IMG/VR virus record: IMGVR_UViG_3300033463_000046 | Origin: a virus | Taxonomy: Duplodnaviria; Heunggongvirae; Uroviricota; Caudoviricetes | Length of the DNA: 64,000 nt | Strand: one strand, 5' to 3' | In this document: in pieces, positions 1-23,894 of the stretch | Numbering within the stretch: position 1 is the first letter of the stretch | Layout of the letters: each line of letters begins with the position of its first letter | The notes under the pieces: generated by a model | What the model was told of the DNA's origin: nothing | What the model saw: the letters and a program-made list of their open reading frames with translations, nothing else | Databases searched by the model: none | Position numbers and translations under genes: made by a program

Positions 1-1970
<1,970 letters not shown>

Positions 1971-2069
1971 GTTTATCAGCTACTTCATTATTCTTACAAT
2001 ATTCTAAAACAGGCTTTCTAAATGCCTTACGTTTTACAATTACCTAACCATCGTAAATAAATATTGCTC

Positions 2070-2264
2070 TCATATTCTAATATGTGCTCTTTTATCCAAT
2101 AACTTCTTTAACTCTTGTGGAGTAACTTCTATTTGCTTCCACTCTTCATATTCATTTAAATCTCCTAATGTTCCATAGTGCAATAGAAATACCCACCTGG
2201 GTACAGATAAATCTATAAAGCACATACTGGGATAATCCATAATTTCTTGAATCCAAACTTTCAT
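2070..2264 (-). CDS. hypothetical small protein
   Basis: 64-aa ORF in track. Confidence 0.35.
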   Translation of the reverse strand: MKVWIQEIMDYPSMCFIDLSVPRWVFLLHYGTLGDLNEYEEWKQIEVTPQELKKLLDKRAHIRI

Positions 2265-2280
2265 AACTAATATTTTTAAT

Positions 2281-2370
2281 TGGTTGGGATAGTAGGATTC
2301 GAACCCACACTTACGCCTTCAGAGGGCTACGGATTTAGAGTCCGCTGTGCTACCATTACACCATATCCCA
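2281..2370 (-). tRNA. suppressor tRNA, anticodon CTA (reads UAG); type II, about 20-nt variable arm; CCA encoded
   Basis: Reverse complement folds as acceptor tgggata/tatccca, D-stem gtgt/gcac, anticodon stem gcgga/tccgt with loop ctCTAaa, long variable arm, T-arm gtggg-ttcgaat-cctac, discriminator a, then cca. Confidence 0.8.
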
Positions 2371-2419
2371 GTATTCCGGTAGCAGAGCTACCGTAACTAC
2401 AAAAATACCTTCCAACAAA

Positions 2420-2839
2420 TTAATTGCAAGAAGGTAAGATTGAGTTCAACTCAGTAAGTCTATCATTTACAACCTTTTTAAGGTATTTCTTAAACTTATG
2501 AATCCCAGCTCTGACTGATTCTAAATTCTCAGAAAATATACAGTCATTAATTTTCTTTACTTCATCTTCTCCCATAAAGTCTAATGTTGCAATAAATAAA
2601 TCATCCGGTAAAGTATTTATATACTCTTGGAATTTCTCTGATTCTATTTTTGCGGAATTATCTTCTAATACTTCGATTCTAATGTTGATTATTTTCTCTC
2701 CATCACTGGAAACAATTGCTTTTACTTTTTTATTTTCAAGATTAAAATCAGCTCCTACTTTCTTTAAAAGTTCTTCAATTTTTGACATAATAAATTTAAT
2801 TTTCTGTTTATATTTCTCATCTGGATTATTTCTATACAA
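2420..2839 (-). CDS. hypothetical protein
   Basis: 139-aa ORF in track. Confidence 0.45.
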   Translation of the reverse strand: MYRNNPDEKYKQKIKFIMSKIEELLKKVGADFNLENKKVKAIVSSDGEKIINIRIEVLEDNSAKIESEKFQEYINTLPDDLFIATLDFMGEDEVKKINDCIFSENLESVRAGIHKFKKYLKKVVNDRLTELNSILPSCN

Positions 2840-3122
2840 GTAATAATATCTTAATTGTTAATTCCAAATTAATTTAATATTAATTTTTGTTAAATATTAT
2901 TTTTACTCTATTTTGCTAAATTTTATGGAGTTAAGCTATACTGGGTACAGGTACTTATATATTTATCCCCCCCCCTATATTGTTAGTGTCTTTTTATATA
3001 TACGTATTCACTATTGCCAAAAATTTTCTGTGGTAGTAGAAAGGGGGTCCACAACCCCCTTAGTCCCCGGCACATACTTGGAATAAAAACAAAATATATT
3101 TACTTAATCACTTTTTAAGCGT

Positions 3123-3689
3123 ATGAAAGAAATAGTATCAAATTCAGCAATTCTGAGTGAGTTCAAGGAGCAGGCTGAGGCTCTTGGTCGTACCGTCAAC
3201 CTCGATGAGGAGAAGCGTGTGGGTTCTAACGGCTACAATATCGGGCAAACATTCACGCTCGATGGCACAATCAAGATTGCCAAGGTCAGCCGTAACGGCG
3301 AAACCACTGGCGTGTTCCTCGCACTCGGAACTAAGGAAGGCACTGACCTTTCCTTGCAGTCCTTGATGGGACTTTCCTCACTGCGTGGCTACGAGATGGA
3401 GGGCGAGGCTGATGACAGCACTGGCAACCACTATGATGCTGAAGTCGCCGCCGACGTCAAGAAGGACTTCGTAGGTTGGAAGAACCTCAAGACGCGTGAC
3501 CTCTATGAGATGGCTGCTCTGATCGAGTCGGGCGATGTCAACCTCAAGGACAAGAAGGTCACTTACAAGGGTCGCGTCTTCCGTAAGTGGACAGCCCGCA
3601 ATGCTGGCACTGACCTGACCACTGGACAGGCTTACGCCGAGGGCGATGCTCGTGTTTCACGCGTTCAGTTGTGGCACGTCGCTGCGTGA
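3123..3689 (+). CDS. hypothetical protein with strikingly GC3-rich codon usage
   Basis: 188-aa ORF. After about 10 AT-rich codons the codons switch to ctc/ggc/gtc/gac; the neighbours are AT-rich. Confidence 0.6.
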   Translation: MKEIVSNSAILSEFKEQAEALGRTVNLDEEKRVGSNGYNIGQTFTLDGTIKIAKVSRNGETTGVFLALGTKEGTDLSLQSLMGLSSLRGYEMEGEADDSTGNHYDAEVAADVKKDFVGWKNLKTRDLYEMAALIESGDVNLKDKKVTYKGRVFRKWTARNAGTDLTTGQAYAEGDARVSRVQLWHVAA

Positions 3690-3735
3690 GAGTAATGGGG
3701 AGAAATCCCCACTCTCACCCCTTTATTTGTAGGTG
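3690..3735 (+). terminator. intrinsic terminator
   Basis: Hairpin gagagt..gggga-GAAA-tcccc..actctc directly after the TGA, followed by a T-rich run. Confidence 0.5.
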
Positions 3736-3739
3736 TGAT

Positions 3740-4575
3740 GCTACTTTGTGTGAAAGGTAAAGTTGGAGGTATGACACTGATAAGCGATGATAACGGAAAA
3801 TCGTACAAGTTGCTCAACCTATGTGTACCTCCATACTTAAACTTTTCTGGATACTTTCAACTGCTCGAAAAGCCGAGAGGTTTCGAAGTGATTCGAGTAG
3901 TTAGATTGTAATACTATTTGTAGGCTGGGTGTTAAACGTTCGCAAAGAGTCGAATAGGCTCGAGCGTCGGCGCACGACTCCGACCCTACAAAACCCTGTT
4001 CTCCCGATTTCAAACAATCTTTGGGAATAGGGCGACCTTTATAGGTCAAACTCCGCTAAAGGCTCCAGGGCCCAAGTGAGCCAATAGTGGAACAACTCAA
4101 CAAACAACAAACAACAACAACAATTTAAAAATTCAAGTTTAACCCGTAGATGTATTTTGTCAATATTCCCTTAATATCAATCTGCTTTCGAGCAGTTTGT
4201 TGTTGAGAATAAACTCAATTTCTTAAGCAGTAATGCTTAGAGTTGCACTCCAGCGAGTGAATAACTTCCCAAGATCTTGAGGGCACCAGTTTCCCACCAA
4301 CTCCAAAGACTCTTTTAGAGCCTTTCTTGGTGGTTTTAGGTGTAAAAGACAACTTTTCTCGCTACAGAGAGAAGACCTTTTATAATGTGTAAATATAGCA
4401 ATAATCTGTACACATTATTAAGTCAGAGAGGATTTTGCTAAAGACTTTAAAAGCGGTTGAACCTCGCATTTACTCTGCAGAGTATTAAGGTCTCGAAGAA
4501 GTTGGAAGGACTTCAAGATCGGAAATGTAGCGCTAGGGCCGAGGAGAAATCCGAAGCTTCTCGGCTCGTTTTTTA
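3740..4575 (+). ncRNA. candidate large structured non-coding RNA
   Basis: About 840 nt with stops in all six frames and GC above the coding regions. Many local hairpins and a (CAA)n tract; bounded by terminators at 3690-3735 and 4538-4575. Confidence 0.3.
4538..4575 (+). terminator. intrinsic terminator
   Basis: Stem gccgag/ctcggc followed by tcgtttttt. Confidence 0.45.
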
Positions 4576-4612
4576 ACAATAACAAAAGCAAAAATTTTTA
4601 AAAACTCTCAGT

Positions 4613-4897
4613 ATGAAACAGAAAATTCAAGTCACAACTGCGGAGATTCATGCTCCTGCACAGGTTGTCCTGCCTAACACGTATTTCGTATCAAAGGCAG
4701 TTAAGGCACAGTTCGCAATCCAGCGTCTAAAGATTGAAGTTGAAGAACAGAAAAAGTTTGTTGCAGAGAATCATCGAGATGATCTCAAGTGCATCGAGAT
4801 TCCAATCGACTTCATCGACCAGGTTGTAGAAACCTCTGGAGATTTCCTCAATGAGCTCATTGATGCTCTCGAAGGTAAAGAATCTGAAAATGAATAA
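4613..4897 (+). CDS. hypothetical protein
   Basis: 94-aa ORF in track. Confidence 0.5.
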   Translation: MKQKIQVTTAEIHAPAQVVLPNTYFVSKAVKAQFAIQRLKIEVEEQKKFVAENHRDDLKCIEIPIDFIDQVVETSGDFLNELIDALEGKESENE

Positions 4898-4899
4898 CC

Positions 4900-6165
4900 C
4901 TTTAAAATTAATTATTCACCAGTTACCATTATAATGCGTAACTTATCATTCTTAAGTCTCGTAAGAGAAACTGAGAATTGTTTTTCTCTCATTGAGAGAA
5001 CTTATGAATACCTACAATTTTACAACATGCCGAGAAACTCTAGTATCTTGGTAATTTGACCAGTTGCCAGGAGAAATTCATGAGTACAAATTGTCCCCAT
5101 CGCCTAGTAGGCGTTTTAGGCTAAAGAAGTCTTGGTCAACACAAGAGTGTTTGTGTAGACTCTGATGCCTAGGGGAATCGTTGGCAGAGAACTGCAGGTT
5201 GAAGTTGAGAATAGTATTCTTAATGAAGTAGCTAGGGGATGTGTGGTAGCGTACATGTCTTTGACTTAAACAGCTAGGAATTAACTTGTCAACACTCTGA
5301 CAATTATTTCCGAACTTCTCAATATGATAAGTGGTATCCTCATGACCGGCCACATTTAAAATGGTTTTAAGAGGTGTAGTAACTGAGAGAAGTAAATCTC
5401 CGGACTTGTAGAAACCGAAAGGGAGTATGTAAGGAGGACTCTTTGCCCAGAAGAGGATAATAAAACTTGGTTAGTCATTAGGACTGGGCTAAATGCACGG
5501 TTTATGATGCTGAAAGAGCCGTAGAGGCATAATGTTATAGACAAGAACATAGGAATTACCAACTCCGAAAATATTGTTTAGGAACATTACATTGAAAGCT
5601 AAGGTCTGTGGATTGCTGTAAAATGTCAACAATCCTACATCGTGGTTGATGGGAGACACAGAGAAACACAGACCAAATACCATTTTGCGTGCAGCGACCT
5701 TCAATGCGTCAAAGCACTTTCCCAAGACAAAGAGGAGCATAATTGGGAATGGTACTTAAATTGCCGTAAAATAAAGAAACGGAGCTTCGCGAGCGGGGAC
5801 CTACGCGCAACCAATCAATGGTATGCTGGCCATCATGGAAACCGCTCACTTTTCTTTGAAAGTATGTTCAAATAACATATTACTCCGATCCAAGTGATCT
5901 CCCTACTTCGGAGGATCCCGCGATTGCTTGCGTACGAAGGCTTTCTTGGGACGAAATGTGGTTATGGCTTTTCAACTACTGATGTAAGTCTTGTAAAAAG
6001 TGGAACTCCCGCCAAAAAAGAGGGCAGTAAGGACCAACTGGAAACTATCTGAGAACCATTTCGGGGCAGCCTTGAGCTGATACCGTTTGGCAGGTTGATG
6101 AACGTAAGGTTAGCTAGGTCTATTGGGAGGTGATGCTATTCCTCCCGCTTTTGTGAGAAACCAAA
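4900..6165 (+). ncRNA. candidate large structured non-coding RNA
   Basis: About 1.27 kb with no frame open beyond about 90 codons and all three stops in every frame. CTAG/TAGG-rich, GC about 45-50%. Ends with hairpin gggagg/cctccc plus gcttttgtg at 6125-6155. Confidence 0.3.
6125..6155 (+). terminator. intrinsic terminator
   Basis: gggagg-tgatgctatt-cctccc then gcttttgtg. Confidence 0.4.
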
Positions 6166-6177
6166 AACTCGAGATAT

Positions 6178-6546
6178 ATGAAGGTAATTGTAACAAGCTG
6201 GATGTTTCCTAATGAAAATGGTGGAAACGATGATAGACCAAAGAGTATTGAGAGAATTTCTTCCTCAATCGAAGACTTAAAAAGATTTCTTAAGGATTAC
6301 TATCCTGAGAAAGATAAATTTGTCTTCAAGAAAACTCTCTTGCATCTGCAAGTGATGGGAACTCCTGATGAGAAGCTCTTCGCCGATAGTGATGATATCA
6401 CTCGTTATTACAACGGTGACGGATTTAAGTATCTGGAAGAATGTCTGAAGGATGACTCTCTTGGTCAGTGTGTTGCTAAGATCTACCGCGAAGGCTGGGA
6501 ACAGCATGCGACGTACTATCTCTTCCAGGTCAGGAATCTTCATTGA
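6178..6546 (+). CDS. hypothetical protein
   Basis: 122-aa ORF in track. Confidence 0.5.
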   Translation: MKVIVTSWMFPNENGGNDDRPKSIERISSSIEDLKRFLKDYYPEKDKFVFKKTLLHLQVMGTPDEKLFADSDDITRYYNGDGFKYLEECLKDDSLGQCVAKIYREGWEQHATYYLFQVRNLH

Positions 6547-6714
6547 CCTGGGAGATATTTCCGAAAATCCAAAAACTCTCAAACATATGAAGAAACTTCA
6601 AATCTCTCCGAAAGGACAAGGCGTCCCGCGCACCAGCTTTGCTGGTGTCGTGGCATGGTGCTTCTGTTCTTATGCTTTCGTGTTATTATGTGCAGTAATT
6701 TACATTTTTGTAAG

Positions 6715-6960
6715 ATGAGACCTAATCCGAAAGCTATGACCCTCATTAATCAGCTTATGGCTGAATCACATGAGGAGACGAAGAAAGCTGCGTATGCTTT
6801 CTTTAATAAGTGTGATTACGCTGATCTCATCAATGATGGATTGTGCGTAGTGGATATGGATCGTCGCGACTCTTTCTTAGAGTATGCGAAAGCTAAAGGT
6901 ATTACACCTTCTGGTGGTGCGTTTACACAGGACATGAAAGCTCAATACTTTTACGTATGA
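6715..6960 (+). CDS. hypothetical protein
   Basis: In-frame ATG at 6715 within track ORF 6655-6960 (MRPNPKAMTLINQL...). The upstream part overlaps a hairpin. Confidence 0.45.
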   Translation: MRPNPKAMTLINQLMAESHEETKKAAYAFFNKCDYADLINDGLCVVDMDRRDSFLEYAKAKGITPSGGAFTQDMKAQYFYV

Positions 6961-7061
6961 AAATTCTAGTCTTGTCAGCAATAATAACAGTAGCGTGCTT
7001 CTTGTTAGGTGCGCTACTTGGTTCATTTGTGTATAAAACCTTTAGAAGATGGCTAAGTTAA
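6957..7061 (+). CDS. small membrane peptide (34 aa)
   Basis: ATGA overlap with the previous stop; MKILVLSAIITVACFLLGALLGSFVYKTFRRWLS. Confidence 0.3.
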   Translation: MKILVLSAIITVACFLLGALLGSFVYKTFRRWLS

Positions 7062-7217
7062 AACACATGACAAGATCACAAGCAATTACAACTGCAGCTC
7101 GTTATGGTCTGCAGCGTGAAATCGCATATGAGATTGATCATAATAATCGTACTCCTGAGGAGGCACTTGCCGAATGGGATATTCTTTAGTATAAAAAATT
7201 TTAAACCAAAAACTCTC

Positions 7218-7649
7218 ATGGATTATAAGGAATTAACAAGAAAACTAAATGAGTTCCGTGAAAAAGCTCGCAAGGAAAGTAGAACTTTCACAAGTGTGCA
7301 GCTTTACGAGGAATTTGAGAAAATCGGCTTTAATGCTTCTATTGCTAAGCGTGTAGCTGCTCTTATGGAGTTTGAAAAAATCGGTACGGCAAAACTATAT
7401 AGTATGCCAGAAAAACCGATTCATCAGGCTCGGATTGAAACCTTGTATAAGGAAGCCCAAAAGTCTCACAAAAAGTACATTGCCAAGCGTGATCGTGTGA
7501 AGACTGAGGACATGACTGAAAAACAAGCTCTGGATATGCTGATCAAGAAGGGTTACAGAATCAAGAAAGCTGTCAAGTTTGACCTAGAGCGTTTCATGGT
7601 TGAGCAGCCTGAGATGTATCGTAGATATTGTATTTATGAATACATTTGA
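7218..7649 (+). CDS. hypothetical protein
   Basis: Internal ATG (MDYKELTRKLNEF...) of track ORF 7104-7649; the upstream part looks non-coding. Confidence 0.5.
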   Translation: MDYKELTRKLNEFREKARKESRTFTSVQLYEEFEKIGFNASIAKRVAALMEFEKIGTAKLYSMPEKPIHQARIETLYKEAQKSHKKYIAKRDRVKTEDMTEKQALDMLIKKGYRIKKAVKFDLERFMVEQPEMYRRYCIYEYI

Positions 7650-7815
7650 GATGGAAGACTTTCTGAAAACAAAGAGAGGCCTCGAGTATCTGCTCGAGAC
7701 CTCTCCTTCTGATATGCCAGTATTAACTGCTGTTCAGAAGGCTAAGGATGATTATCGTGATGCGGAAAATGACTATTTAATGCGTCAAGCTGAAGATACT
7801 TATTGTCATGGCTGA
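7600..7815 (+). CDS. hypothetical small protein
   Basis: 71-aa ORF. Confidence 0.35.
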   Translation: MSSLRCIVDIVFMNTFEMEDFLKTKRGLEYLLETSPSDMPVLTAVQKAKDDYRDAENDYLMRQAEDTYCHG

Positions 7816-8086
7816 AGTTAAACAGTATAATGCGGAATTAGAGTGGGTCAAGCGTGGTCAGTATCGCGCCTACGACGACATGCACTACATTTGTGAGATC
7901 CACACTGAAGAGGAGATTCCTGAAAAGGATATTCTCTTGCTAGTTGAGAACGGTCGAAGGCTGCCTAAAGATGAATGGGACATCCGTTCTAAGCAGTGCT
8001 TTGATGACATATTTAGGGGATATTATACCATTGAGAAAACTGATTATGGTTATCGATATTATGGTGTAGATCCTTACGATGACTAA
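7808..8086 (+). CDS. hypothetical protein
   Basis: 92-aa ORF; ATGA overlap with the upstream ORF. Confidence 0.5.
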   Translation: MAEVKQYNAELEWVKRGQYRAYDDMHYICEIHTEEEIPEKDILLLVENGRRLPKDEWDIRSKQCFDDIFRGYYTIEKTDYGYRYYGVDPYDD

Positions 8087-8099
8087 AATCTTTTGCGGT

Positions 8100-8225
8100 A
8101 TGGATATAAAGTTTTTAAAGGAACATGCTAATAGAATTGATCTTTCTGAAGCTGAGCTTAAAGAGCCAATGACTGAAGAAGATTATGATTTCGAAAGAGC
8201 TTGCGAAATGATTTTCCATATGTAA
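8100..8225 (+). CDS. hypothetical small protein (41 aa)
   Basis: ATG at 8100 to TAA at 8223. Confidence 0.3.
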   Translation: MDIKFLKEHANRIDLSEAELKEPMTEEDYDFERACEMIFHM

Positions 8226-8700
8226 ACGCGCTTGTATCGGCGCTATATAAGAGTGATCAAAGGGCAGAGATCCTAAGGACGTAAGTCCTAAGGTGACGTA
8301 AGGTCAAGCCCGCATCCGAGGTTGATGGACTAGCACTTCGGCCCTACCTTATCTTTTCATCTTTTGTGAAGGAGGTTCTCGATTTTCGTCTTGTTTGGGT
8401 TAATAAGATAGCTAAAGAGAACGGAGTAACCTCTGACTGATCTATGATCGGATATGTCGTAGGCAGGACAAATTCCGATCATTTTCGGCAACTAAGTTGC
8501 CAAAAATGGGTTGAAATTCCCAGACGTTGACAGCGCAATTACTCATTTATGACCCGAGTTATAGTTGACGTCTAAAATCCTATTCATGTTCTAACCTTCA
8601 CGTGGGAATAGGGTGAAAATTGAGATATTGTGATAATATCTTAATGAGTACATATAGAACATTTGCTAAATTCTATAAAATTGTTTATCATTGCATTAGA
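8226..8700. ncRNA. candidate structured non-coding region
   Basis: No ORF. Direct repeats cctaagg/acgtaag and perfect hairpins (ggcaac-ttag-gttgcc). Confidence 0.2.
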
Positions 8701-8731
8701 TAGTTTGATTAAATAATTTAACGTTAAAAAT

Positions 8732-10036
8732 ATGAAAGACAAGATTAAAGAGTTTAGAGACAAAAATCCTATATTGGATTTTGCAGCAGGCTTTATCCCA
8801 GGTGTGGGAGAAGCACAAGATGCTCATGATTTTGTACATGCTGCTAAAAAGAAAGACTTTGGAGGAATGGCATTAGCTTCTTTAGGTTTTATTATTCCAG
8901 GTGTAACTGGAGGACAATTCTTGAAGATACTTAGACCACTAACAAAAACATAGTGGGGAGCTTGGGCTGCTAAACATTTAGATGAGTTGTCTACTGTTAG
9001 ACCAAGACTTGCTGAAGGTGTTGCAAAAAATGAACCAGAAGCTGTAAAGATACATAAGACATTAGAAAAAATAGCTGATGGCAAAGTATATATTCCAGAA
9101 AAACGTGGCATTGTTAAAGATATTGACCCAGATACTCCTATTTTACCATTTGTAGATTAGAGAGGATATAACCTTACTCCTGAAGCTAGAGTAAATGCAG
9201 CTTTAGATTACGCTATAAGTACTGAAAAAGGGCGTGCTGTTCCTGGAATAATGGGAGGAGCAAAGGGAGTGCAAGGTGTAGAAGAATTAATACCAGGATT
9301 CCCAGCTTTTAAGAAAATAAATAATGTTAAAACTAGAATGGGACAATTCACTGGTGCTGACATTATTACTGCATTGTATTATAGTGGTCATGGTAAGATA
9401 AGATCTAGTAATGCTATATATGATGCTATTATGAAAGCTCCAGTATCTGGAAATGCTAAAGAATACGCCAAAGCTTAGTTAGAAGTTGTAGAAGGAATAC
9501 TATAGAAATACAGTAAAAACACTGATAAAGTTGGAGTGTTTAAAGCTACTAAATTAGCTAAGAAAGGTAGAGATAATGTTTCAGAAACAGAAAGAGCACA
9601 TTCATATGGTCTAATTCCAGATGAATTAGTTAATCCTAAAACTGATCAAGCTGTTAAAGATAGAATACATTTGGAAGAATCTTTAAACAATTTGAGTATA
9701 TGGTTTGGTTCTAAAAATGGTAATGGTGTTGCAGAATTTTATGGTCCTATTCCAATGAATTTATATTCTGGAAGTTATGGAGGAAAGAAATTTGGAGGTA
9801 GTGGTGATCATAAATTATTTGGATTTAATAATTCTATATTAGTAAAGAATTAGGATGATCTTGCAATACATATTGCTAATTCTAAAGATAAAACTATGGG
9901 ATTGGTAACTGATATTTAGGATGGTGCTGGTGTGACAAATGACGTAATATTCTAGCCATATAGGTATAGTTTAATAAGACAAAAGAAAGGTGGTCGGATT
10001 TGCCTAACTACTTCGAAGAAGCGAGGACCGTTTTAA
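8732..10036 (+). CDS. hypothetical protein carrying 8 in-frame TAG codons (amber read-through gene)
   Basis: Track ORFs 8732-8953, 9251-9478 and 9536-9853 are collinear in one frame, separated only by TAG triplets. The frame runs to TAA at 10034-10036 (1302 nt = 434 codons from 8732). The C-terminal 60 codons are less certain. Confidence 0.5.
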
Positions 10037-10110
10037 TCCGCCTGGATAATGAATCTACTTTCTGGTGAAAGTCAGTCAGTTAAGCACTTGGACTGCTGGA
10101 TTAAATACAA

Positions 10111-10692
10111 GTGCATTTTAAAACTCTCATTATGCAAATAGTAATTAAAAACAAAAAGTGTTCAATTGACAAAATCAAGAGAGAATATCCTGATTGCGTC
10201 ATTATTGATGTAACGAGTAAAGCTAAGGATGAGTTCAGAAAGCTTAGTCCTTTTTATCCTCATTGCAGTATTCCTGTTAATCCTATTTCTGAACAATTTT
10301 TATTTGGAGCGTCAGTAGAAGGAATTTGGCAAGGTTTGAAAGTATTTGAAGATGAAGGGCCAAGTCTATCTAGTCTTCATAATTCTTCAATGCGTGGATT
10401 AAAGAGAACAACTCGTGTACATGGTCGTTGCTTGGGACATGCTTATGGCGACATAATTGGCAAGAAATATACTTTACTTGGTTACGTAGAAGCTCGTAAG
10501 AAATTGTATGTTCCAGCCTATAAATGGGTGTTAGAGAATAAATGTGCTGATTTAGTTAATAAGATTCGTATCATAGCTCAACATAAGACAGTGATACTTC
10601 TTGATTATAATACTAATGAAGACATTGAAAATGGTAATAAACCGTTATCTCACGCTGCATTAATTAAAAAATATATTAATAAAGAAATTTAA
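10111..10692 (+). CDS. hypothetical protein
   Basis: 193-aa ORF in track. Confidence 0.55.
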   Translation: MHFKTLIMQIVIKNKKCSIDKIKREYPDCVIIDVTSKAKDEFRKLSPFYPHCSIPVNPISEQFLFGASVEGIWQGLKVFEDEGPSLSSLHNSSMRGLKRTTRVHGRCLGHAYGDIIGKKYTLLGYVEARKKLYVPAYKWVLENKCADLVNKIRIIAQHKTVILLDYNTNEDIENGNKPLSHAALIKKYINKEI

Positions 10693-11330
10693 GGTTGAAA
10701 TTCCTTGGACTACTGCCGGCCAATTCTTGTAGTCCTAAAATGCTCCCGTGGTTCACCTGCACGTTGCTTCAGTAATGAGGCGGTGGGAGTGCATGTGTTG
10801 CGAACACTCTATTGAAATATTATAGAGGACTGTGCGACGAACTGACGAACCAAATTTCCCAGCAATGGGCGGCAGGCATCGTGTCGTTAGGATAAACCAG
10901 TAATGGTATAAAGTGGTGAGACCTCTCACTGCACACCCTTTGCCGACTTGTCGGGAGGATGGCTAAAAGAATGCGCATTTATCGAAGTGATACATGGTGT
11001 AAGGACGGGCAGTCCTGATAGTGTTGATCGCTGGGCTCTGACTAAGCTCGGCTTAATCCGTAAGGAGGATAAGAGATAATTGCAAATGTTTCCCGAAGAC
11101 CGCAAATCTGAGAGAGCATTAAGTATGTAGTTTGTAAGCCTATGGGAGTAGCGTCCCACTCAGCCTGCTAAGCTGAGAGAACAGAAATGGTAGGTTTGTA
11201 GAACGGAGATACAGAGAAGTATGTGATTGCAAGCAGAAAATCATGGTGGGGCTGGTCCTGTAGCTGCTCAAAAGGCAGTATGGATACAAGTGCAGCCACC
11301 TCACCTTACAACTAGTCCTTCTTTAAAATA
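10693..11330. ncRNA. candidate structured non-coding region upstream of a tRNA
   Basis: No ORFs and higher GC. Perfect hairpins ggactac..gtagtcc, ctctat..atagag, gtgaga-cc-tctcac, ccgac-tt-gtcgg. Confidence 0.25.
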
Positions 11331-11333
11331 AAG

Positions 11334-11407
11334 AGTCGTTTAGCTCAATTGGTAGGAGCGCAACACTATTAATGTTGAGGCCGTCAGTTCAAGTCTGACA
11401 ACGAATT
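11334..11407 (+). tRNA. tRNA, Asn-like body with anticodon loop ctATTaa (anticodon ATT, atypical)
   Basis: Acceptor agtcgtt/aacgaat (one G-A mismatch), D-arm gctc-aattggta-gagc, anticodon stem caaca/tgttg, T-arm gtcag-ttcaagt-ctgac. Paralogous to tRNAs at 23372 and 30165. Confidence 0.6.
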
Positions 11408-11409
11408 AG

Positions 11410-12210
11410 GATCGCATAAGAAGAAGTAAAAAAAGCAAAAGCGCTGCACACGCTAGATTTAAAATGGTGGTTATCTCCGCTGCCTACCTTTCAAGCTTCG
11501 GCTGTGAGAGGGGAAGATGCGGGTGAGGAGGGGTCGCAAGCCCTGATTCAAGTATTGTGAATAGCAACAGGTATAAGAGGGGGCACCTTCTGTAACTTCC
11601 GGCAGGAGACCTGGGTTTGAAGCAGCTATGAAGTCTAGTGTAGTTTTCGCAAGTTTTTATGAAAGCTTGTCCCCATGACATCTACCAGCAGAAGTGTTGG
11701 TGTGTAAGTACCTCGTAAACAAGGGATATAATGGTGTCACAAAGAGTCATATACTCAGCTCTTTACTTGCCTAGTTAGCTCAGATACTATAAGAGCGTTT
11801 CCTGGATGGAAAAGGTCGGGGGTGTAAATCCTTCACTAGGCACATTGGATTTTTCTTTAAAGCCATTTAGTTCTTCACACTGTGAAGTATGATAGAACGG
11901 AAGGTAGTTTAAGTGACATTGGGATGTGCATATTTTAGTGTCCGAGTTAAAACACGATTTCTTATATAAATCGTATGAGAGGGGCGGATCCTCTCCCTTC
12001 CACAATTCCGAGTTTAAATAAATTGGAGAGTTCGGAACTCCAAAGAGTTTTTGGTAGCCTTGCCGATCGGTGAGGAAGTGTGTTCGCTTGCAAGAAGAAA
12101 CAGTTTCCATACTGGCTTTAGTTATTGTAAGAAAGCGTTCGCGCGTCCCCTCAGTCAGAAATGGCTGAGGGTTTTATTTGGTAATTTATTTACAATAACA
12201 TAAATTTATT
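11410..12210. ncRNA. candidate structured non-coding region
   Basis: About 800 nt without ORFs; track ORFs on the minus strand are short and stop-ridden. GC-rich hairpins. Confidence 0.25.
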
Positions 12211-12214
12211 TAGT

Positions 12215-14140: not shown

Positions 14141-14492
14141 ATCCTCTAGGATAGGTTAAGAGACTTGACCTTGCCACTATTGGTTTTACAACCTTTGTGT
14201 GGGTCCAAGGTCTAACTCTTATTTGAGAAATGAAGGACTAGCACCCTACATTGTAAGTATCAGGACATTAAAGAATCTGCCCTTATAAGGCGGACTTATT
14301 CGATCAGAGATCGAATGTTACTTCTAGACAGCACATACGAAATACAACTTTTGGCTTTCGAGCTGCCCCAACGGAATTACTCTAAATCTTTCTTGTTGGG
14401 CTCAGTCTAAGTCTCAGTTGTATGTGCTGGTCTCAGTTCCTGATTCAGACTCAGACTGCACGCTGAGTCTTTCAGTTCTACTATCCTAACTA

Positions 14493-14564
14493 GCAGGTGT
14501 AGCACAATGGTTAGTGCATCAGTTTGCCATACTGGGGACGGGAGTTCGATTCTCCTCACCTGCT
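14493..14564 (+). tRNA. tRNA-Gly (GCC)
   Basis: Acceptor gcaggtg/cacctgc, D gcac-aatggtta-gtgc, anticodon loop ttGCCat, T-arm gggag-ttcgatt-ctcct. Confidence 0.8.
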
Positions 14565-14845
14565 CTAACTTTTATGTGGTATAGTGTAAGGGTAGTCTTA
14601 CATTATCTGGATAATGTTAAAATGGGTATAGTTACATGAGATAAGAGTAGTCCAGAATGCTCCTCTGAAGTTATGTACCTTGAAGATGTAGCACGATATG
14701 AGCGTATGCTCATATTGAGAGAGTTCGAGTCTCTCTACCACAACTAGATAATAGAAGTTAAACATTTAAAATAGTTATAATTATGAAGAAGTATTTACGA
14801 AAACGCTTGTTAGGTTACACCGAGATCTAACAGCTCCAATCGTAT

Positions 14846-14936
14846 ATCGGTAAGTGCGTGGAAACAGGCGGATTACATCGGGCTTTTAACCCGAATAGCA
14901 GGGTTCGACTCCCTGTTGGAGCACAAATCAACTCCT
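14846..14936 (+). tRNA. atypically long (91 nt) tRNA-Lys(TTT)-like gene with about 19 extra nt in the D region
   Basis: Perfect acceptor gctccaa/ttggagc; anticodon arm tcggg-ctTTTaa-cccga; T-arm caggg-ttcgact-ccctg. 36 nt lie between acceptor and anticodon stem where 17 are expected. Confidence 0.45.
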
Positions 14937-15460
14937 GCGAGGAAGATTAACGGCAGATTCTATCACTACTGGAGAAGTCATATTCTAGACTAAAACTTCT
15001 CATAACAGTATATTCAAATGGATGTGGTTAGACCTGATGTCAGTCTAGAATGACTGATGGAAGTTGAACATCTTAGAATTCACTGATCACCACCGCTAAC
15101 TGAGGTGGAGGAAGCAAGTTCGACTCTTGCCCTCGCAACATATTCCGAATAGTTATTCATAGTTGCCTATTGGAGACTGACTGCTCCTTTAGGAATGGGT
15201 GATTCAACGTTCAGAGTTAAACTCCTACTGTACAGTCAGATGGTAGGTGCTCCAGAGTTCGCCTGATGGGTTCAAGGAGCATTTTTAAAGAATCAACAAG
15301 TCCATTTACTTAAGTTGCAGTTGTTAAAATAATGAAGCTAACAAAAACAATGAACGCCTTAGTATAAACTTTTTTGAGATAAACTACTTACTCTTGCTTC
15401 AGAGAAGTGCATCTAAGTTGGGAAGACCATTGGGTTATGGTTCCGTTAGAAGATGCAATT

Positions 15461-15532
15461 GCGGGTATAGCACAACGGTTAGTGTAGGAGATTTCCAATC
15501 TTCTGATGTGGGTTCGATTCCCATTACCCGCT
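15461..15532 (+). tRNA. tRNA-Gly (TCC)
   Basis: Acceptor gcgggta/tacccgc, anticodon loop ttTCCaa, T-arm gtggg-ttcgatt-cccat. Confidence 0.8.
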
Positions 15533-15960
15533 CTATAATTTATGATGTATGATACGTAGAATTACAGAAGTTCGAGAAACTACTATTTATGTCGGAGACA
15601 AGCTGATAGTAGTGAAAGAAGAAGTCCACACAATTAGGATTCTTCCAGACACACCCGAGGATTAGCTGCATCTTCCTCGTTAAAATCGCGATGTAGCCGC
15701 AGAGATCCGGCACTGGTGTTAAGCGTCCGGTCATTCTTCGACCAGAATTTTCTTTTGAAATAAAGAAGCTGGCAGAGCTCAAAAGAGTGAATGCCTCTAG
15801 GATGGTAACCTGGAGGCTTTTTCTTTGAAAGTCTGATTTTGCTCATAATAGGTTGGAAAAGTTGAGAATTATCTATAATATCGCATGATATATCAATAGA
15901 TAATTTCTCAACTATTCCGGATTCATGTTGAGAACTAAATTAATTAAACGTTTAATTATT

Positions 15961-17190
15961 ATGAATGAAATTTAGAAATTTAAGCAAGGAAGAAAAGTAC
16001 TTTCTGCTAAATTCGGTGACAATTTTAAAAGAGTTGGCACAGCAAGTAATGGTTTATCTGGTATATATTTCAATCCTGACGATAATCAATTATGGAAAGG
16101 TGGATTAACTGGATATAGTAGAATAGGAGATACATATAGTTATTATTCAGGATTAGGAGGAGGTGTTATTAAAGCTTCTGACTACATTGAAAAGCCTAAG
16201 ACAGGAGTTACTACAAGAACTTCTAGTAATCCAGGTGAAATAGTAGTTAATGGTAAAAGATACGCCTCGAAAGCTGATTGGGTAAAAGAACAAAGAGCAC
16301 AAAGAGAACAACAACCATAGGAAGTAGTAATAACTGGTAGGGCTGGTAAAAGATCTGCTTCTAAAGTCACACCAAGAGGTCAGGGATATTGGGATAAACA
16401 ATACCAAGATTTCTTAGGTAAGATGACTGACGATTAGAAAGCGTGGTTAGCATAGAGAGGTATTGATTATAATTCTGCTCAACAAATGCAAACTTATTTA
16501 GCTAATCATGGTCAAGATCTTGGTAAATGGGGTGCTGATGGTAAATGGGCAGGTGCTTCCCAAGCAGCTTGGGATAATTTCGTTGCAACAACAATGAAGA
16601 ATAATCCTTTACAAACTCCTGTAAGAGATCCACAACCTACAGTTGAACCAGTAGTTGATGCTGCAGACCCATTCGGATATAAGACATCTAATCATTATGG
16701 TGATGGCTTTGCTTTAAAGAATATGGGATTCAGTAATTATGCTGGATTACAAAAATTTGCTATGGGTGATGATCAATTTGCTAAAGACTTACGTGAAAGA
16801 TTTGGTCAAGATGTAAGTCAGTGGGATCAAGCAGCTGTAGAAGGCGCATTGAATGTAAGTGGTCGTTATCGTGGTGGTAGAAGTGGCGACTTTGGTGATA
16901 TGGCTCGTAGTATGCAAGATTGGGCTGCTAAGAAAAATGCTGCATATGATCAAAAAGAATTAGCTTCTAGAACTGGTGCAAGTGGTACAACATATTCTTC
17001 TCCAGAAATGATGAAGAAATTTGAGAGTATTAAAATATCCCCAGAAGTTAAATATGGTTAGAGTACTAAGTTTGATTTTAGTAATATGAAGTTTAATTCT
17101 GGATTTGGTAATACTGGCACTAATACTCTTGGAGATGCTGGGGCAGGTACTATGAACAATCAAAAACAATTAGCATATGCGGATAAGTAA
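15961..17190 (+). CDS. peptidoglycan-binding-domain protein with in-frame TAG codons (recoded)
   Basis: One frame from ATG 15961 through track ORF 16486-17061 to TAA at 17188. In-frame TAG at codon 5 and four more. Motif MQTYLANHGQDLGKWGADGKWAGASQAAWDNFV resembles PG_binding_1. Confidence 0.5.
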
Positions 17191-18528: not shown

Positions 18529-18548
18529 ATAGCCAAGGATTTAATATC

Positions 18549-18621
18549 GCGGGATAACTGGAGGTGGTTCCCAGACTAGGCTCATAACCTAGAAACGTTG
18601 GTTCGAGTCCGACTCCCGCTA
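18549..18621 (+). tRNA. tRNA with CAT anticodon (Met/fMet/Ile-lysidine class)
   Basis: Acceptor gcgggat/ctcccgc (6 of 7 pairs), D ctgg-aggtggttc-ccag, anticodon arm ctagg-ctCATaa-cctag, T-arm gttgg-ttcgagt-ccgac. Confidence 0.65.
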
Positions 18622-18627
18622 CACATC

Positions 18628-18707
18628 GTGGTCGAGTGAAACTGGATAGTTATAAATCACACTAGTCTCATAAGCTAGGAATAACAGGTTCGACTCCTGT
18701 GACCGCA
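18628..18707 (+). tRNA. tRNA-like with CAT anticodon, 80 nt, extended D region
   Basis: Acceptor gtggtcg/tgaccgc (2 GU), anticodon arm ctagt-ctCATaa-gctag, T-arm cagg-ttcgact-cctg. About 7 extra nt lie 5' of the anticodon stem. Confidence 0.45.
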
Positions 18708-18819
18708 ACACTTATTAAAATTATTGTTAAACAACGGTGCTGTCGTGAGACAGTCGTGTTATCCTTTACGTCGCAAGACGTGCTTTGTCATAGGCTTTGG
18801 GGACAGTGGTCTCCTAAAT

Positions 18820-18892
18820 AGCAGTATAGCTTAGCGGCCTAAAGCGCAGCACTCATAATGCTGAGATCGTAGGTTCGAATCCAACTACTGCT
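18820..18892 (+). tRNA. tRNA with CAT anticodon
   Basis: Acceptor agcagta/tactgct, D gctt-agcggccta-aagc, anticodon arm cagca-ctCATaa-tgctg, T-arm gtagg-ttcgaat-ccaac. Confidence 0.75.
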
Positions 18893-18928
18893 ACGCTTTT
18901 GATTTTTGATAGGTATAGCATAAAAAAA

Positions 18929-18962
18929 GGTAGCCATTCGTGAGAACAGCTACCTTATTTTT
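18929..18962. terminator. bidirectional intrinsic terminator
   Basis: ggtagc-cattcgtgagaaca-gctacc flanked by an A-run upstream and ttattttt downstream. Sits between the convergent tRNA array and the amidase gene. Confidence 0.6.
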
Positions 18963-19556
18963 GTAAGTATTTTAAAATACCTTCAACATGAAGTCTTACA
19001 ATATCTTGAAAACCTCTGTCACTAAGGAGATAATCAACATCTGATTTATTATCTTGGAAGAAGTTTTCAGTAAGAACAGCAGGACAAATAGTATGTTTAA
19101 GAACATATAAATGTGCTTCCTTATCTGGATCTCCATCAGAAAAATCAGTGCGCATTCTTTTATCTTGTGCATTATATTTGGCAGCATTATACAAACAGGT
19201 AGCTAAATCATCTGCTTTTGTTTTACCAGGAGTAGTATAAACTTCCCAGCCTGTTCCAGTGTGCCATTTACCATCTGATGATGCAGCATTAACATGAATA
19301 CTTACATATATGCAATCCCCATATACTTTGCATAAATCATTTACAACCTTACAACGTAGACAAAGTTCCTATGATTGAGTAACATTTAAATCATCATCTT
19401 CAATGTCTATAAATACCTAATAACCATAATCCTATAGGATTGCTTTTACTGCTGCAACAATTTCTCTAGAATAAGCGTATTCTTTAAGTCTTTTGTCTGG
19501 TGAACATTTACCAGGTGTACTTTTTAAATGTGCAGTACCTAAAATAATTGTTTTCA
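18955..19556 (-). CDS. N-acetylmuramoyl-L-alanine amidase (Amidase_3-like endolysin) with 3 in-frame TAG codons
   Basis: Minus-strand ATG at 19556. MKTIILGTAHLKSTPGKCSPDKRLKEYAYSREIVAAVKAIL-x-DYGY-x-VFID...VSIHVNAASSDGKWHTGTGWEVYTTPGKTKADD..., where x marks a TAG. This continues into track ORF 18955-19194 and ends at TAA. Shows the Amidase_3 blocks. Confidence 0.75.
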
Positions 19557-19642
19557 TAGTAAAATAGTTATTTAATTTGTTTAACATAAATCTGAATACT
19601 AAATTAGTCAAAATTGTCTCTAACTAAAAATTATTTATTATT

Positions 19643-22842: not shown

Positions 22843-23371
22843 CGAATCGACATATAGCTTTAGCTTTAAACACAACCTTCGGGTCTCAGCTTTATTTGGA
22901 TACTAGATATTTAGATTTAGCATTGTGTCGAAAAGCTTCAGCCTTGAGATTCTTATGTGGAAACCCAACATCTATTTTTTAAACCGTAAATTCGGGGGTT
23001 CGAATCCCCCATTCCCCTCACTTGTCCACGGGTCCGTCTAGTAATAGACAATGGGACATTGTAGTATCACACCGCCTCTGATACTACACGCAACCTAGTA
23101 GTGTGTGTTCTTTCTCATGCTTTGAGATATAAAGTACTAGGAAAGCTTGGAAGGAGAAGAGACGTAGCAGGTTAACTGGGAATGCAGTGCGTATAATGGC
23201 AAAGAGTGAAGGCATTCTAATCCTGAAGATAAGTCCATTAATATCCTGCCTCCTTCCTAAATGGGGAATTAGTTAAGTGGATTAAAACATACGGGAAATT
23301 TAGCTTAAAGATGTTGAACGGTAGAAGCAAACTGTCAGGCTCTCATTGCTAGGATATTTGATTGAGAGTCT

Positions 23372-23810: not shown

Positions 23811-23816
23811 ACAAAT

Positions 23817-23891: not shown

Positions 23892-23894
23892 GCA

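What the first reader, a model, noticed from the sequence alone, without database searches (positions are those of the whole stretch)
3740..6165. Two long stop-saturated GC-enriched non-coding stretches flanking a small ORF: candidate large structured RNAs
Regions 3740-4575 and 4900-6165 have all three stop codons in every frame and CTAG/TAGG-rich composition. Their GC is clearly above the roughly 33% of the coding DNA. They have many perfect local hairpins and are delimited by intrinsic terminators. In phages, tRNA-adjacent RNAs of this size are typified by GOLLD/ROOL-class ornate RNAs. Whether these belong to a known class cannot be decided by eye.
Basis: partly seen in the sequence, partly recalled or inferred. 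Interest (0 to 1): 0.7.

Follow-up and report, generated by a model that had tools for sequence, protein, structure and literature searches.

The report
Two new large structured phage RNAs
The two gene-less stretches encode two unrelated, large, intricately folded non-coding RNAs (about 660 and 830-870 bases) of a roughly 190-kb crAss-like phage; they match no catalogued RNA family, and new RNAs of this size and complexity are rare.

Summary
Positions 3738-3911 are a conserved 57-aa protein gene, not non-coding DNA. Positions 5857-6152 are a lineage-specific insertion with no sign of structure.

Between them lie two real structured RNAs on the + strand. R1 is about 3914-4574. R2 is about 5010/5024-5857. 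Each ends in a conserved intrinsic terminator.

In relatives from about 20 metagenomic contigs, both keep their helices through compensatory changes:
- R1: 34 of 75 pairs change on both sides, against 23.1±2.1 in shuffles and 4-9 in slid controls.
- R2 5' domain: 19 of 40 pairs, against 7.7±1.8 in shuffles and 1-7 in slid controls.

G·U pairs far outnumber A·C pairs. Substitutions show no codon periodicity, and indels break the reading frame. The R2 core is 89% identical to a locus where the neighbouring protein is only 44% identical.

Neither RNA matches any of the 4227 Rfam 15 families. The same kind of scan finds a sub-threshold GOLLD-like RNA 5 kb downstream (11244-11761). R1 and R2 are unrelated to each other, single-copy, and R2 is built from modules that come and go.

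I read them as two new families of stable, trans-acting ornate phage RNAs, in the GOLLD/ROOL style. Their function is unknown. An invariant GGGCCC loop in R1 suggests self-association.

The parts
3697..3710 (+). Hairpin GGGGAGAAATCCCC directly after the stop codon of the 188-aa gene (3123-3689). It probably terminates or punctuates the upstream unit.
   Evidence: Sequence. Conserved in win, L002, L011, L016 (alignment A1).
3724..3733 (+). First copy of the invariant decanucleotide TATTTGTAGG, 4 nt before the small ORF. Candidate promoter or processing signal (inferred).
   Evidence: Exact copies occur only at 3724 and 3915 in the 64-kb window. Invariant in 8 relatives. A similar TAT(A/T)T.GTAGG lies upstream of the 188-aa gene leader.
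3738..3911 (+). Conserved small protein gene, 57 aa (MLLCVKGKVGGMTLISDDNGKSYKLLNLCVPPYLNFSGYFQLLEKPRGFEVIRVVRL). It is coding, and not part of the RNA.
   Evidence: An intact ORF ends 7-10 nt before the second motif in all 11 lineages examined, with protein-level conservation down to about 30% identity. One database homologue, P0049, is 75% identical. No Pfam match. The AF2 model has low confidence and is all-beta.
3914..4574 (+). R1 RNA, about 660 nt: a multi-domain structured non-coding RNA. Its 5' helix pairs UUUGUAGG with CCUACAAA (3918-3925 with 3988-3995).
   Evidence: Alignment A5 of 12 distinct sequences. RNAalifold predicts 75 pairs, 34 with changes on both sides. 95.3% of cells are paired. 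34 covarying pairs against 23.1±2.1 in shuffles (0/500) and 4-9 in slid controls. G·U 122 against A·C 11. No codon periodicity, p=0.9. One copy per locus by covariance model.
4066..4077 (+). Invariant 12-nt hairpin loop CAGGGCCCAAGU of R1, holding the palindrome GGGCCC (4068-4073). It is closed by a covarying stem (GGCUC/GAGCC in the window, UGCCU/AGGCA in L011). Candidate symmetric kissing loop (inferred).
   Evidence: GGGCCCAA is present in every R1 homologue. The stem pairs at columns 161-165 with 178-182 covary. Precedent: palindromic loops bridge the protomers of OLE and GOLLD (PMC12286853).
4538..4574 (+). Intrinsic terminator of R1: GCCGAG...CTCGGC followed by a T-run.
   Evidence: Sequence. 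Conserved in win, L002, L011, L017, L026, L028, L029, L044.
4613..4897 (+). 94-aa ORF between the two RNAs. It is replaced by other genes in relatives, so it is not part of either RNA.
   Evidence: No Pfam or PHROG match.
5010..5857 (+). R2 RNA, about 830-850 nt in the window and 503-830 nt in relatives. The 5' end is only approximate, somewhere in 5010-5040. The 3' end is the conserved stem GAGCGG (5791-5796) / CCGCTC (5842-5847) followed by a T-run.
   Evidence: Core blocks 4991-5314, 5394-5460 and 5727-5865 are 75-90% identical to loci whose neighbouring protein is 42-44% identical. Lengths. Further covarying helices and GNRA/UUCG tetraloop swaps in the 3' half.
5024..5205 (+). R2 5' core domain: seven helices around a multi-way junction.
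   Evidence: Alignment A4 of 11 distinct sequences. 40 pairs, 19 with changes on both sides. 94.3% of cells paired. 19 covarying pairs against 7.7±1.8 in shuffles (0/500) and 1-7 in slid controls. The covariance model scores 140-212 bits in 14 loci and finds a single copy in the window.
5055..5061 (+). Invariant hairpin loop UUUGACC of R2. It is complementary to the invariant GGUCAA at 5134-5139. Candidate pseudoknot or loop-loop contact (inferred).
   Evidence: Both stretches are invariant in all 11 sequences of A4. Because neither varies, covariation cannot test the contact.
5317..5393 (+). Optional R2 hairpin module of about 77 nt, with conserved loop CCACAUUUAAAA. Present in the win, L002, L028 and L044 lineages and absent in L016, L017, L029 and L030. 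In L050 it lies 5' of the core instead.
   Evidence: The closing stem CUUCUC/GAGAAG becomes UCUCC/GGGAGA in L050.
5461..5726 (+). Variable expansion segment of R2. Present in the window and L044, mostly deleted in L002 (5498-5687), and replaced by about 35 nt in L029.
5857..6152 (+). Unassigned 296-nt insertion between the R2 terminator and the 122-aa gene, with its own terminator-like hairpin (6126-6152). No evidence that it is a structured RNA.
   Evidence: Present only in the window and L002 lineages at 98-100% identity. In L028, L044 and L029 the next gene starts about 30 nt after the R2 terminator. Fold z-score +0.71 on the + strand and +0.45 on the - strand.

Best explanation
The finding covers two independent genes for large, highly structured, non-coding RNAs. 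They sit at the head of the rightward gene block of a roughly 190-kb crAss-like phage that infects Bacteroidota.

R1 (about 3914-4574, 660 nt) always follows a conserved pair of genes: a GC-rich 188-aa gene and a 57-aa gene. R2 (about 5010/5024-5857) is a self-contained cassette. Its flanking genes differ between lineages, and its periphery gains and loses whole hairpin modules around an almost invariant core.

Shown: both are read from the + strand, fold into many helices kept by compensatory mutation, end at conserved intrinsic terminators, match no Rfam 15 family, and are unrelated to each other.

Inferred: they accumulate as stable trans-acting RNAs during infection, as the early and persistent long non-coding RNAs of crAss-like phage phi14:2 do. 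They act through their three-dimensional shape. R2 would be locked by a UUUGACC/GGUCAA loop contact. R1 would pair with a second copy of itself through its invariant GGGCCC loop. This would place them in the same functional niche as GOLLD and ROOL, the ornate phage RNAs that self-assemble and sit among phage tRNA genes. The molecular target is not known.
For: No coding potential:
- Stops of all three kinds occur in all six frames.
- Substitutions show no 3-nt periodicity (p=0.5-0.9). The adjacent 188-aa gene, as a control, gives p=2e-14. Gap lengths are 1, 2, 4, 7, 8, 10 and 19 nt.

Covariation:
- R1: 34 of 75 pairs change on both sides; 114 such cells against 42.9±4.9 in shuffles.
- R2 5' domain: 19 of 40 pairs; 35 cells against 11.0±2.8.
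- Slid controls collapse to 31-52% of cells paired, against 94-95% for the real structures.
- A base pair is inserted on both strands at once in L029: UCUCC/GGAGG becomes UCAUCU/GGAUGG.
- GAAA, UUCG and other tetraloops replace each other on the same stems.

Strand: G·U against A·C is 122:11 in R1 and 37:8 in R2. The terminators are on the + strand.

Conservation above that of the proteins: R2 positions 4991-5314 are 89% identical to L029/L030, where the 188-aa homologue is 44% identical and its DNA no longer aligns.

Autonomy:
- The gene upstream of R2 is 94, 142, 139 or 188 aa, and the gene downstream is 122, 132 or 94 aa, depending on lineage.
- R2 is absent from the L011-L015 lineage.
- In L050 R2 sits where R1 sits elsewhere.

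No known family: Rfam at E<=10 over 3600-6300, at E<=0.05 over the whole window and at E<=1 over four relatives.

Host virus: the DnaB-like helicase finds crAss-like phages as its best hits. The contigs are 184-197 kb.

Precedents: the phi14:2 long non-coding RNAs (bioRxiv 10.1101/2020.03.07.982082) and palindromic kissing loops in OLE and GOLLD assemblies (PMC12286853).
Against: - There are no expression data, so the 5' ends, abundance and stability are all inferred.
- The alignments hold only 11-12 distinct sequences in two or three clades, so many of the covarying cells are inherited events. One measure, the number of further pair types, does not exceed the shuffles.
- The proposed tertiary contacts (GGGCCC, and UUUGACC/GGUCAA) are invariant and therefore untested by covariation.
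- The high identity of R2 relative to neighbouring proteins could partly reflect recent transfer of the cassette between phages rather than selection alone.
- The structures of phi14:2's RNAs are not known. One of those two regions matches tmRNA, and neither matches R1 or R2.
Confidence: 0.82

Rival explanations
1. They are long cis-acting leaders or 3' UTRs (riboswitch-like or attenuator-like) that control the neighbouring protein genes, not free-standing RNAs.
For: R1 always follows the 188-aa and 57-aa gene pair on the same strand, with only a weak terminator between them. All units point the same way. No promoter has been mapped, and the sigma-70 scan is not informative for Bacteroidota or for a phage RNA polymerase.
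Against: Both RNAs end in strong conserved terminators before the next gene. The downstream gene differs between lineages for both RNAs, and the upstream gene differs for R2. Sizes of 500-850 nt with more than 10 helices far exceed known bacterial cis-regulators. No riboswitch or leader family matches.
Confidence: 0.08
2. They are divergent members of a known large RNA class (GOLLD, ROOL, a group I or II intron, RNase P, tmRNA) that the Rfam models fail to recognise.
For: The phage context with many tRNAs is typical of GOLLD and ROOL (PMC12286853). This phage clade carries divergent versions of known RNAs that score below the gathering threshold: GOLLD-like at 54-66 bits and group-I-like at 46 bits.
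Against: The same permissive scans that pick up those divergent RNAs give nothing for R1 or R2, in the window or in four relatives. GOLLD and tmRNA are already accounted for elsewhere in the window (11244-11761 and 48804-49171). No split host gene and no homing-endonuclease or reverse-transcriptase ORF lies nearby. No tRNA is embedded.
Confidence: 0.05
3. The conservation reflects DNA-level function (replication origin, packaging site, protein-binding arrays), or the regions are decaying gene remnants; the RNA is incidental.
For: The locus lies 0.7-3 kb to the right of the GC-skew minimum and strand switch at about 2900-3100. A decanucleotide recurs three times. 5857-6152 looks like plain inserted DNA.
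Against: Compensatory changes keep Watson-Crick and G·U pairs on one strand only, and a DNA element would not select for that. Terminator hairpins with T-runs close each unit. There is no repeat array. No residual protein similarity or periodicity is seen.
Confidence: 0.04
4. The regions are translated under a further alternative genetic code, or as many tiny ORFs.
For: The phage encodes CUA and UCA suppressor tRNAs. One genuine small gene (57 aa) was hidden inside the first interval.
Against: TAA occurs 5-13 times in every frame of both regions. Indels break the frame and there is no third-position bias. The window's long ORFs are open under the standard code.
Confidence: 0.01

Closest known systems
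GOLLD RNA (Rfam RF02032)
   Same: A large (over 500 nt), multi-domain, phage-borne non-coding RNA of unknown function in a genome rich in tRNA genes. It has a conserved core with variable periphery, and conserved loops suited to loop-loop contacts. A GOLLD-like RNA co-resides in the same phage, 5 kb downstream.
   Different: R1 and R2 give no covariance-model match even at E<=10. They hold no embedded tRNA and have different helices and conserved sequences. Oligomerisation is not shown for R1 or R2.
ROOL RNA (rumen-originating, ornate, large)
   Same: Similar size (about 580 nt for ROOL), phage or prophage location near tRNA islands, and an ornate secondary structure with probable pseudoknots (PMC12286853).
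   Different: No Rfam family other than tRNA, tmRNA, the GOLLD-like RNA and a group-I-like intron matches anywhere in the window at E<=0.05, so ROOL is absent. The architecture is different.
Early, persistent long non-coding RNAs of crAss-like phage phi14:2 (g004-g005 and g005-g006 junctions)
   Same: Two long ORF-free regions flank one small gene at the start of the rightward early block of a crAss-like phage. In phi14:2 they are transcribed more strongly than most genes, from the earliest time point to late infection.
   Different: No detectable homology: the covariance models of R1 and R2 find nothing in phi14:2 positions 1-12000. One of the phi14:2 regions matches tmRNA (46 bits). Expression of R1 and R2 is unknown.
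OLE RNA
   Same: A non-coding RNA of about 600 nt with many conserved helices. It dimerises through a palindromic kissing loop (GGCC, GAUC or AGCU), comparable to the invariant GGGCCC loop of R1.
   Different: OLE is a chromosomal RNA of anaerobic Firmicutes that works with the OapA/B/C proteins. There is no Rfam match here and no such proteins nearby.

Membership tests
Structured non-coding RNA (generic) | Base pairs maintained by compensatory substitutions beyond what relatedness explains | tested here: met
   R1: 34 of 75 pairs, shuffles 23.1±2.1, slid controls 4-9. R2 5' domain: 19 of 40 pairs, shuffles 7.7±1.8, slid controls 1-7.
Structured non-coding RNA (generic) | No protein-coding signal | tested here: met
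   Stops in all frames. No codon periodicity, and indels break the frame, against a coding control at p=2e-14. Exception: 3738-3911 is coding.
Structured non-coding RNA (generic) | Transcribed as a discrete RNA | not testable with these tools
   Only indirect signs: conserved + strand terminators and an excess of G·U pairs.
GOLLD (RF02032) | Match to the family covariance model (conserved 3' domain) | tested here: not met
   No hit at E<=10 in 3600-6300. The same kind of scan finds a GOLLD-like RNA at 11244-11761 with 54 bits, itself below the gathering score of 150.
GOLLD (RF02032) | Phage or prophage location close to tRNA genes, sometimes with a tRNA inside the RNA | tested here: inconclusive
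   The genome is a phage with 33 tRNAs, but there is no tRNA inside R1 or R2 and the nearest tRNAs are 1.4 kb and 5 kb away.
GOLLD / ROOL / OLE | RNA-only homo-oligomeric assembly | not testable with these tools
   Only a lead: the invariant palindromic GGGCCC in an R1 hairpin loop.
ROOL | Match to the family covariance model | tested here: not met
   No match.
Group I / group II introns | Catalytic-core match and insertion into a host gene | tested here: not met
   No Intron_gpI or group II hit in R1 or R2, although an intron-like element at 34929-35242 is detected. The flanking genes are intact and differ between lineages.
tmRNA, RNase P RNA, 6S, SRP RNA, HEARO and other Rfam families | Covariance-model match | tested here: not met
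   The phage's tmRNA is at 48804-49171.
phi14:2-type early long non-coding RNAs of crAss-like phages | Long ORF-free regions flanking a small gene at the head of the rightward early block of a crAss-like phage | tested here: met
   Layout. crAss-like affinity. phi14:2 layout.
phi14:2-type early long non-coding RNAs of crAss-like phages | Sequence or structure homology to the phi14:2 regions | tested here: not met
   The covariance models of R1 and R2 give only noise on NC_021806 positions 1-12000.
phi14:2-type early long non-coding RNAs of crAss-like phages | High expression, early and persistent | not testable with these tools
   No transcript data for this phage.

The most novel reading that the evidence does not exclude
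R1 and R2 are two previously undescribed classes of ornate RNA. Together with the GOLLD-like RNA 5 kb downstream, they would form a three-RNA toolkit that crAss-like phages deploy from the start of infection. R1 would self-associate through its GGGCCC loop into an RNA-only or RNA-protein assembly, with the co-conserved 188-aa and 57-aa proteins as possible partners. R2 would be a modular scaffold, or even a new ribozyme, acting on host translation, tRNAs or defence systems.
Probability: 0.25. Interest if true: 0.85.

Novelty: new variant of a known kind. Interest (0 to 1): 0.7.

Why it matters
Bacterial and phage non-coding RNAs longer than about 500 nt with ornate, covariation-supported structure are very few: rRNAs, group II introns, OLE, GOLLD, ROOL, HEARO. 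Each new one has opened a line of work. GOLLD, ROOL and OLE were recently shown to form unprecedented RNA-only cages and dimers (PMC12286853).

Here two further unrelated families sit side by side, next to a GOLLD-like RNA, in an uncultured clade of large crAss-like phages. This gives three things:
- two new targets for structure determination;
- a natural system in which to ask why phages carry several giant RNAs;
- a possible structural explanation for the unexplained, highly expressed early non-coding RNAs already seen in crAss-like phage phi14:2.

It also corrects gene calls. Automatic callers placed spurious ORFs inside R2 (for example the 73-aa minus-strand ORF at L029 2757-2978) and missed the 57-aa gene.

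Tried and rejected
- Rfam at gathering thresholds over the window, and at E-value thresholds over the region, four relatives and the whole window. Nothing for R1 or R2. The weak hits (Ref84, ZNRD1-AS1, snoRNAs; E 0.2-8) are noise.
- blastn of 3000-7000 against GenBank phages: no match.
- IMG/VR scans with the two flanking proteins: no relatives.
- IMG/VR DNA patterns. L024 and L025 are chance matches. L036 is chance (14.6 bits). Only L035 is a true R2 homologue.
- The genome-contig scan with a 19-mer from R2 returned seven hits. None shows R2 similarity beyond the 19-mer. The one read, L037, labelled a Prevotella MAG, is GC-rich coding DNA. It gives no host clue.
- Recoding by the phage's suppressor tRNAs: rejected.
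- Pfam and PHROGs on seven neighbouring proteins plus the 57-aa protein and relatives' neighbours: nothing usable.
- The AF2 model of the 57-aa protein was too poor (pLDDT 54) to search with.
- Homology of R1 or R2 with the non-coding regions of phi14:2: rejected.
- R1 against R2: no similarity. They are not paralogues.
- Reading the motif TATTTGTAGG as a Bacteroides -7 box (TAnnTTTG): the spacing does not fit. It also pairs within the first helix of R1, so its role stays open.
- Reading the optional R2 module as a box C/D k-turn: the bulge length does not fit. Dropped.
Full report
**What is in the sequence.**
The longest open stretches are 219 nt and 393 nt. TAA is in all frames, so the phage's own suppressor tRNAs (CUA at 2281-2370, UCA at 38944-39016) cannot open them. 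The window's long ORFs are open under the standard code.
- GC is 41.5% (3914-4575), 41.4% (4991-5855) and 45.5% (5856-6152). The window mean is 37.1%, and the flanking genes are 40-54% GC. The GC argument is therefore weak.
- CTAG is enriched only in the second region (5.8/kb against 2.0/kb).
- The window holds 33 tRNAs, a tmRNA and several other ORF-free gaps.

**Which virus it is.**
- The DnaB-like helicase (60477-61577) finds crAss-like phages as its best relatives.
- Contigs carrying the identical locus are 184-197 kb.
- The window also encodes an SNF2-type helicase, AAA+ ATPases and a group-I-like intron.
- I take it to be a large crAss-like phage. Several ENA assembly names suggest ruminant or gut samples, but that rests on my memory of those names and is unverified.
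- GC skew and gene orientation both switch at about 2900-3100. The finding therefore lies at the head of the rightward gene block.

**Relatives.**
- Exact and homologous copies of the 188-aa protein (3123-3689) led to about 30 contigs, with protein identity from 100% down to 37%.
- Homologues of a gene that precedes R2 in other lineages gave eight more loci.
- One DNA-pattern scan of JGI metagenomes gave three loci.
- IMG/VR gave a single distant R2 copy, L035.
- GenBank phages contain nothing similar.

**Anatomy of the first interval.** Alignment A1 shows four parts.
- A hairpin lies directly after the 188-aa gene (3697-3710).
- The invariant decanucleotide TATTTGTAGG is at 3724.
- An ORF at 3738-3911 is conserved as a 57-67-aa protein in all 11 lineages, ending 7-10 nt before a second copy of the motif. 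This part is coding, contrary to the finding.
- From the second motif (3914) to a conserved terminator (4538-4574) lies an ORF-free stretch of about 660 nt, here called R1.

**Evidence that R1 is a structured RNA.**
- On 12 distinct sequences RNAalifold predicts 75 pairs, 34 of them with changes on both sides.
- Against controls, 95.3% of cells are paired. There are 34 covarying pairs against 23.1±2.1 in shuffles (0/500). There are 114 covarying cells against 42.9±4.9. With the partners slid by 1-3 columns, only 4-9 pairs covary and 33-49% of cells pair.
- The first helix pairs the motif's UUUGUAGG with CCUACAAA, and it extends into two covarying pairs.
- A 12-nt loop, CAGGGCCCAAGU (4066-4077), is invariant on a covarying stem.

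**Anatomy of the second interval.**
- Blocks 4991-5314, 5394-5460 and 5727-5865 recur at 75-90% identity in loci whose 188-aa homologue is only 42-44% identical. In L029, blastn reports matches only within the second interval and none in the coding flanks.
- The 5' domain (5024-5205) aligns cleanly in 11 distinct sequences. It has 40 pairs in seven helices, 19 with changes on both sides.
- 94.3% of cells are paired. There are 19 covarying pairs against 7.7±1.8 in shuffles (0/500), and 1-7 in the slid controls.
- The 3' half shows further covarying helices, swaps between GAAA, UUCG and other tetraloops, and a base pair inserted on both strands at once in L029/L030.
- The RNA ends in the conserved stem GAGCGG...CCGCTC plus a T-run (5791-5857). 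In L028, L044 and L029 the next gene starts about 30 nt later.
- From the start of the core to the terminator, R2 measures 503-830 nt.
- The size range comes from modules. A 77-nt hairpin (5317-5393) is present in four lineages and absent in four, and in L050 it sits on the other side of the core. A 266-nt expansion (5461-5726) is shared with L044 but largely deleted in L002.
- The hairpin loop UUUGACC (5055-5061) and the stretch GGUCAA (5134-5139) are both invariant and complementary to each other. That makes a plausible pseudoknot, which covariation cannot test.

**The tail of the second interval.**
- Positions 5857-6152 are a 296-nt insertion found only in the window and L002 lineages, at 98-100% identity.
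- It has its own terminator-like hairpin.
- Its folding energy is no better than that of shuffled sequence (z = +0.7 and +0.45).
- I leave it unassigned.

**Strand and coding tests.**
- In the predicted helices G·U cells outnumber A·C cells 122:11 in R1 and 37:8 in R2. The RNAs are therefore read from the + strand, in agreement with the terminators.
- Substitutions between the window and relatives are spread evenly over the three codon positions (p=0.5-0.9). Gap lengths are 1, 2, 4, 7, 8, 10 and 19 nt. The adjacent 188-aa gene, as a control, gives 29/18/88 substitutions by codon position, p=2e-14.

**Identity.**
- Neither RNA matches any of the 4227 Rfam 15 families. This holds at E<=10 over the region, at E<=0.05 over the window and at E<=1 over four relatives.
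- Those scans are sensitive enough to find, below the gathering threshold, a GOLLD-like RNA with a tRNA inside it at 11244-11761 (54 bits, E=2.7e-11), its counterparts in L016 and L050, and a group-I-like intron at 34929-35242.
- My own covariance models find exactly one R1 and one R2 per locus. No second copy exists in the window. R1 is missing from L023, L035 and L050. R2 is missing from the L011-L015 lineage. R1 and R2 share no similarity with each other.

**Autonomy.**
- R1 always follows the 188-aa and 57-aa gene pair, but the gene downstream of it varies (94, 142, 86, 85 or 186 aa).
- Both neighbours of R2 vary.
- Together with the terminators, this argues against cis-regulatory leaders and for free-standing RNA genes. 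R2 behaves as a movable cassette.

**How it probably works.**
- Shown: two large, terminator-bounded, + strand RNAs whose folds are under selection.
- Inferred, step 1: they accumulate as stable trans-acting RNAs. In the crAss-like phage phi14:2, two long ORF-free regions flank a small gene at the same genomic position. They are transcribed above most genes, from the earliest time point onwards, and their function is unknown (bioRxiv 10.1101/2020.03.07.982082). I could not link them by homology, and one of them matches tmRNA.
- Inferred, step 2: they act through their three-dimensional shape. Cryo-EM of OLE, ROOL and GOLLD showed RNA-only dimers and cages held together by kissing loops. Palindromic loops (GGCC, GAUC or AGCU) covary in OLE and GOLLD (PMC12286853). 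The invariant GGGCCC loop of R1 is the same kind of element, so a symmetric R1 dimer or multimer is my favoured, untested mechanism.
- A ribonucleoprotein with the co-conserved 188-aa and 57-aa proteins is an alternative. The 188-aa protein folds confidently (pLDDT 84) but resembles nothing in the PDB. It resembles only one uncharacterised gut podovirus protein in BFVD.

**Comparison and novelty.**
- In kind, these are closest to GOLLD and ROOL: large, ornate, phage-borne RNAs in tRNA-rich genomes, with a conserved core, a variable periphery and unknown function.
- In membership they fail the defining test, the covariance-model match, for every catalogued family.
- I therefore rate them as new families within a known kind of element.
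- Caveats: 11-12 distinct sequences in a few clades, no transcript data, and a literature search limited to open-access text. That search found no description of these RNAs.

Noticed in passing
window 11244-11761 (+); also L016 8650-9123 and L050 7815-8080: A sub-threshold but significant GOLLD-like RNA (RF02032; 54 bits against a gathering score of 150; E=2.7e-11), with a tRNA (11334-11407, called Asn-ATT by ARAGORN) embedded in it. It lies in a GC-rich ORF-free gap, 10693-12214. Relatives carry the same RNA.
   Followed up: partly
window 34929-35242 (+): A group I intron-like element just below the Rfam threshold (46 bits against 50; E=1.5e-8), inside the ORF-free gap 34678-35865 next to tRNA-Ser.
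   Followed up: no
window 2281-2370 (-), 38944-39016 (+), 48804-49171 (+): Amber (CUA) and opal (UCA) suppressor tRNAs and a phage tmRNA. The genes of this window nevertheless read well under the standard code, so any recoding probably applies to genes outside the window.
   Followed up: partly
window 3123-3689 (+): The 188-aa gene has 54% GC in a 37% GC genome. It is conserved in all relatives and has no Pfam or PHROG match. Its AF2 model is confident (pLDDT 84) but has no PDB fold match. Its only structural relative is an uncharacterised protein of Podoviridae sp. ctz6O13.
   Followed up: partly
window 2960-3122 (+): The leader of the 188-aa gene (GTGGTAGTAGAGAG, then hairpin GGGGGTCCACAACCCCC, then TTAGTCCCCGGC...) is conserved at DNA level even in L023, where the protein is only 37% identical. 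It coincides with the GC-skew minimum and the strand switch, so it may be an origin or a strong early promoter and 5' UTR element.
   Followed up: partly
window ~2975-2990, 3724-3733, 3915-3924: The motif TAT(T/A)T.GTAGG, often preceded by a C-run, recurs before the 188-aa gene leader, the 57-aa ORF and R1. It could be a phage-specific promoter or an RNA-processing signal. It does not fit the Bacteroides -7 consensus.
   Followed up: partly
window 43333-44487 (+): An adenylosuccinate synthetase-like gene (Pfam Adenylsucc_synt, E=1e-28). I did not check whether it is a PurZ-type enzyme for modified bases.
   Followed up: no
window 8087-8731, 14141-16485, 18529-19642, 22843-23894: Further long ORF-free gaps on the coding strand. 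The 2.3-kb gap at 14141-16485 contains only three tRNAs. None has an Rfam hit other than tRNA, so they may hide more non-coding RNAs.
   Followed up: no
L052 (phi14:2, NC_021806) 4031-4502: One of the two highly transcribed 'long non-coding' regions reported for crAss-like phage phi14:2 scores 46 bits (E=2.7e-16) against the tmRNA model, one bit below the gathering threshold.
   Followed up: partly
window 4598-4612 and 6163-6177: A shared sequence, AAAACTC(T/G)....ATG, precedes the start codons of the 94-aa and 122-aa genes and of their counterparts in relatives. It may be a translation-initiation or promoter-proximal motif.
   Followed up: no
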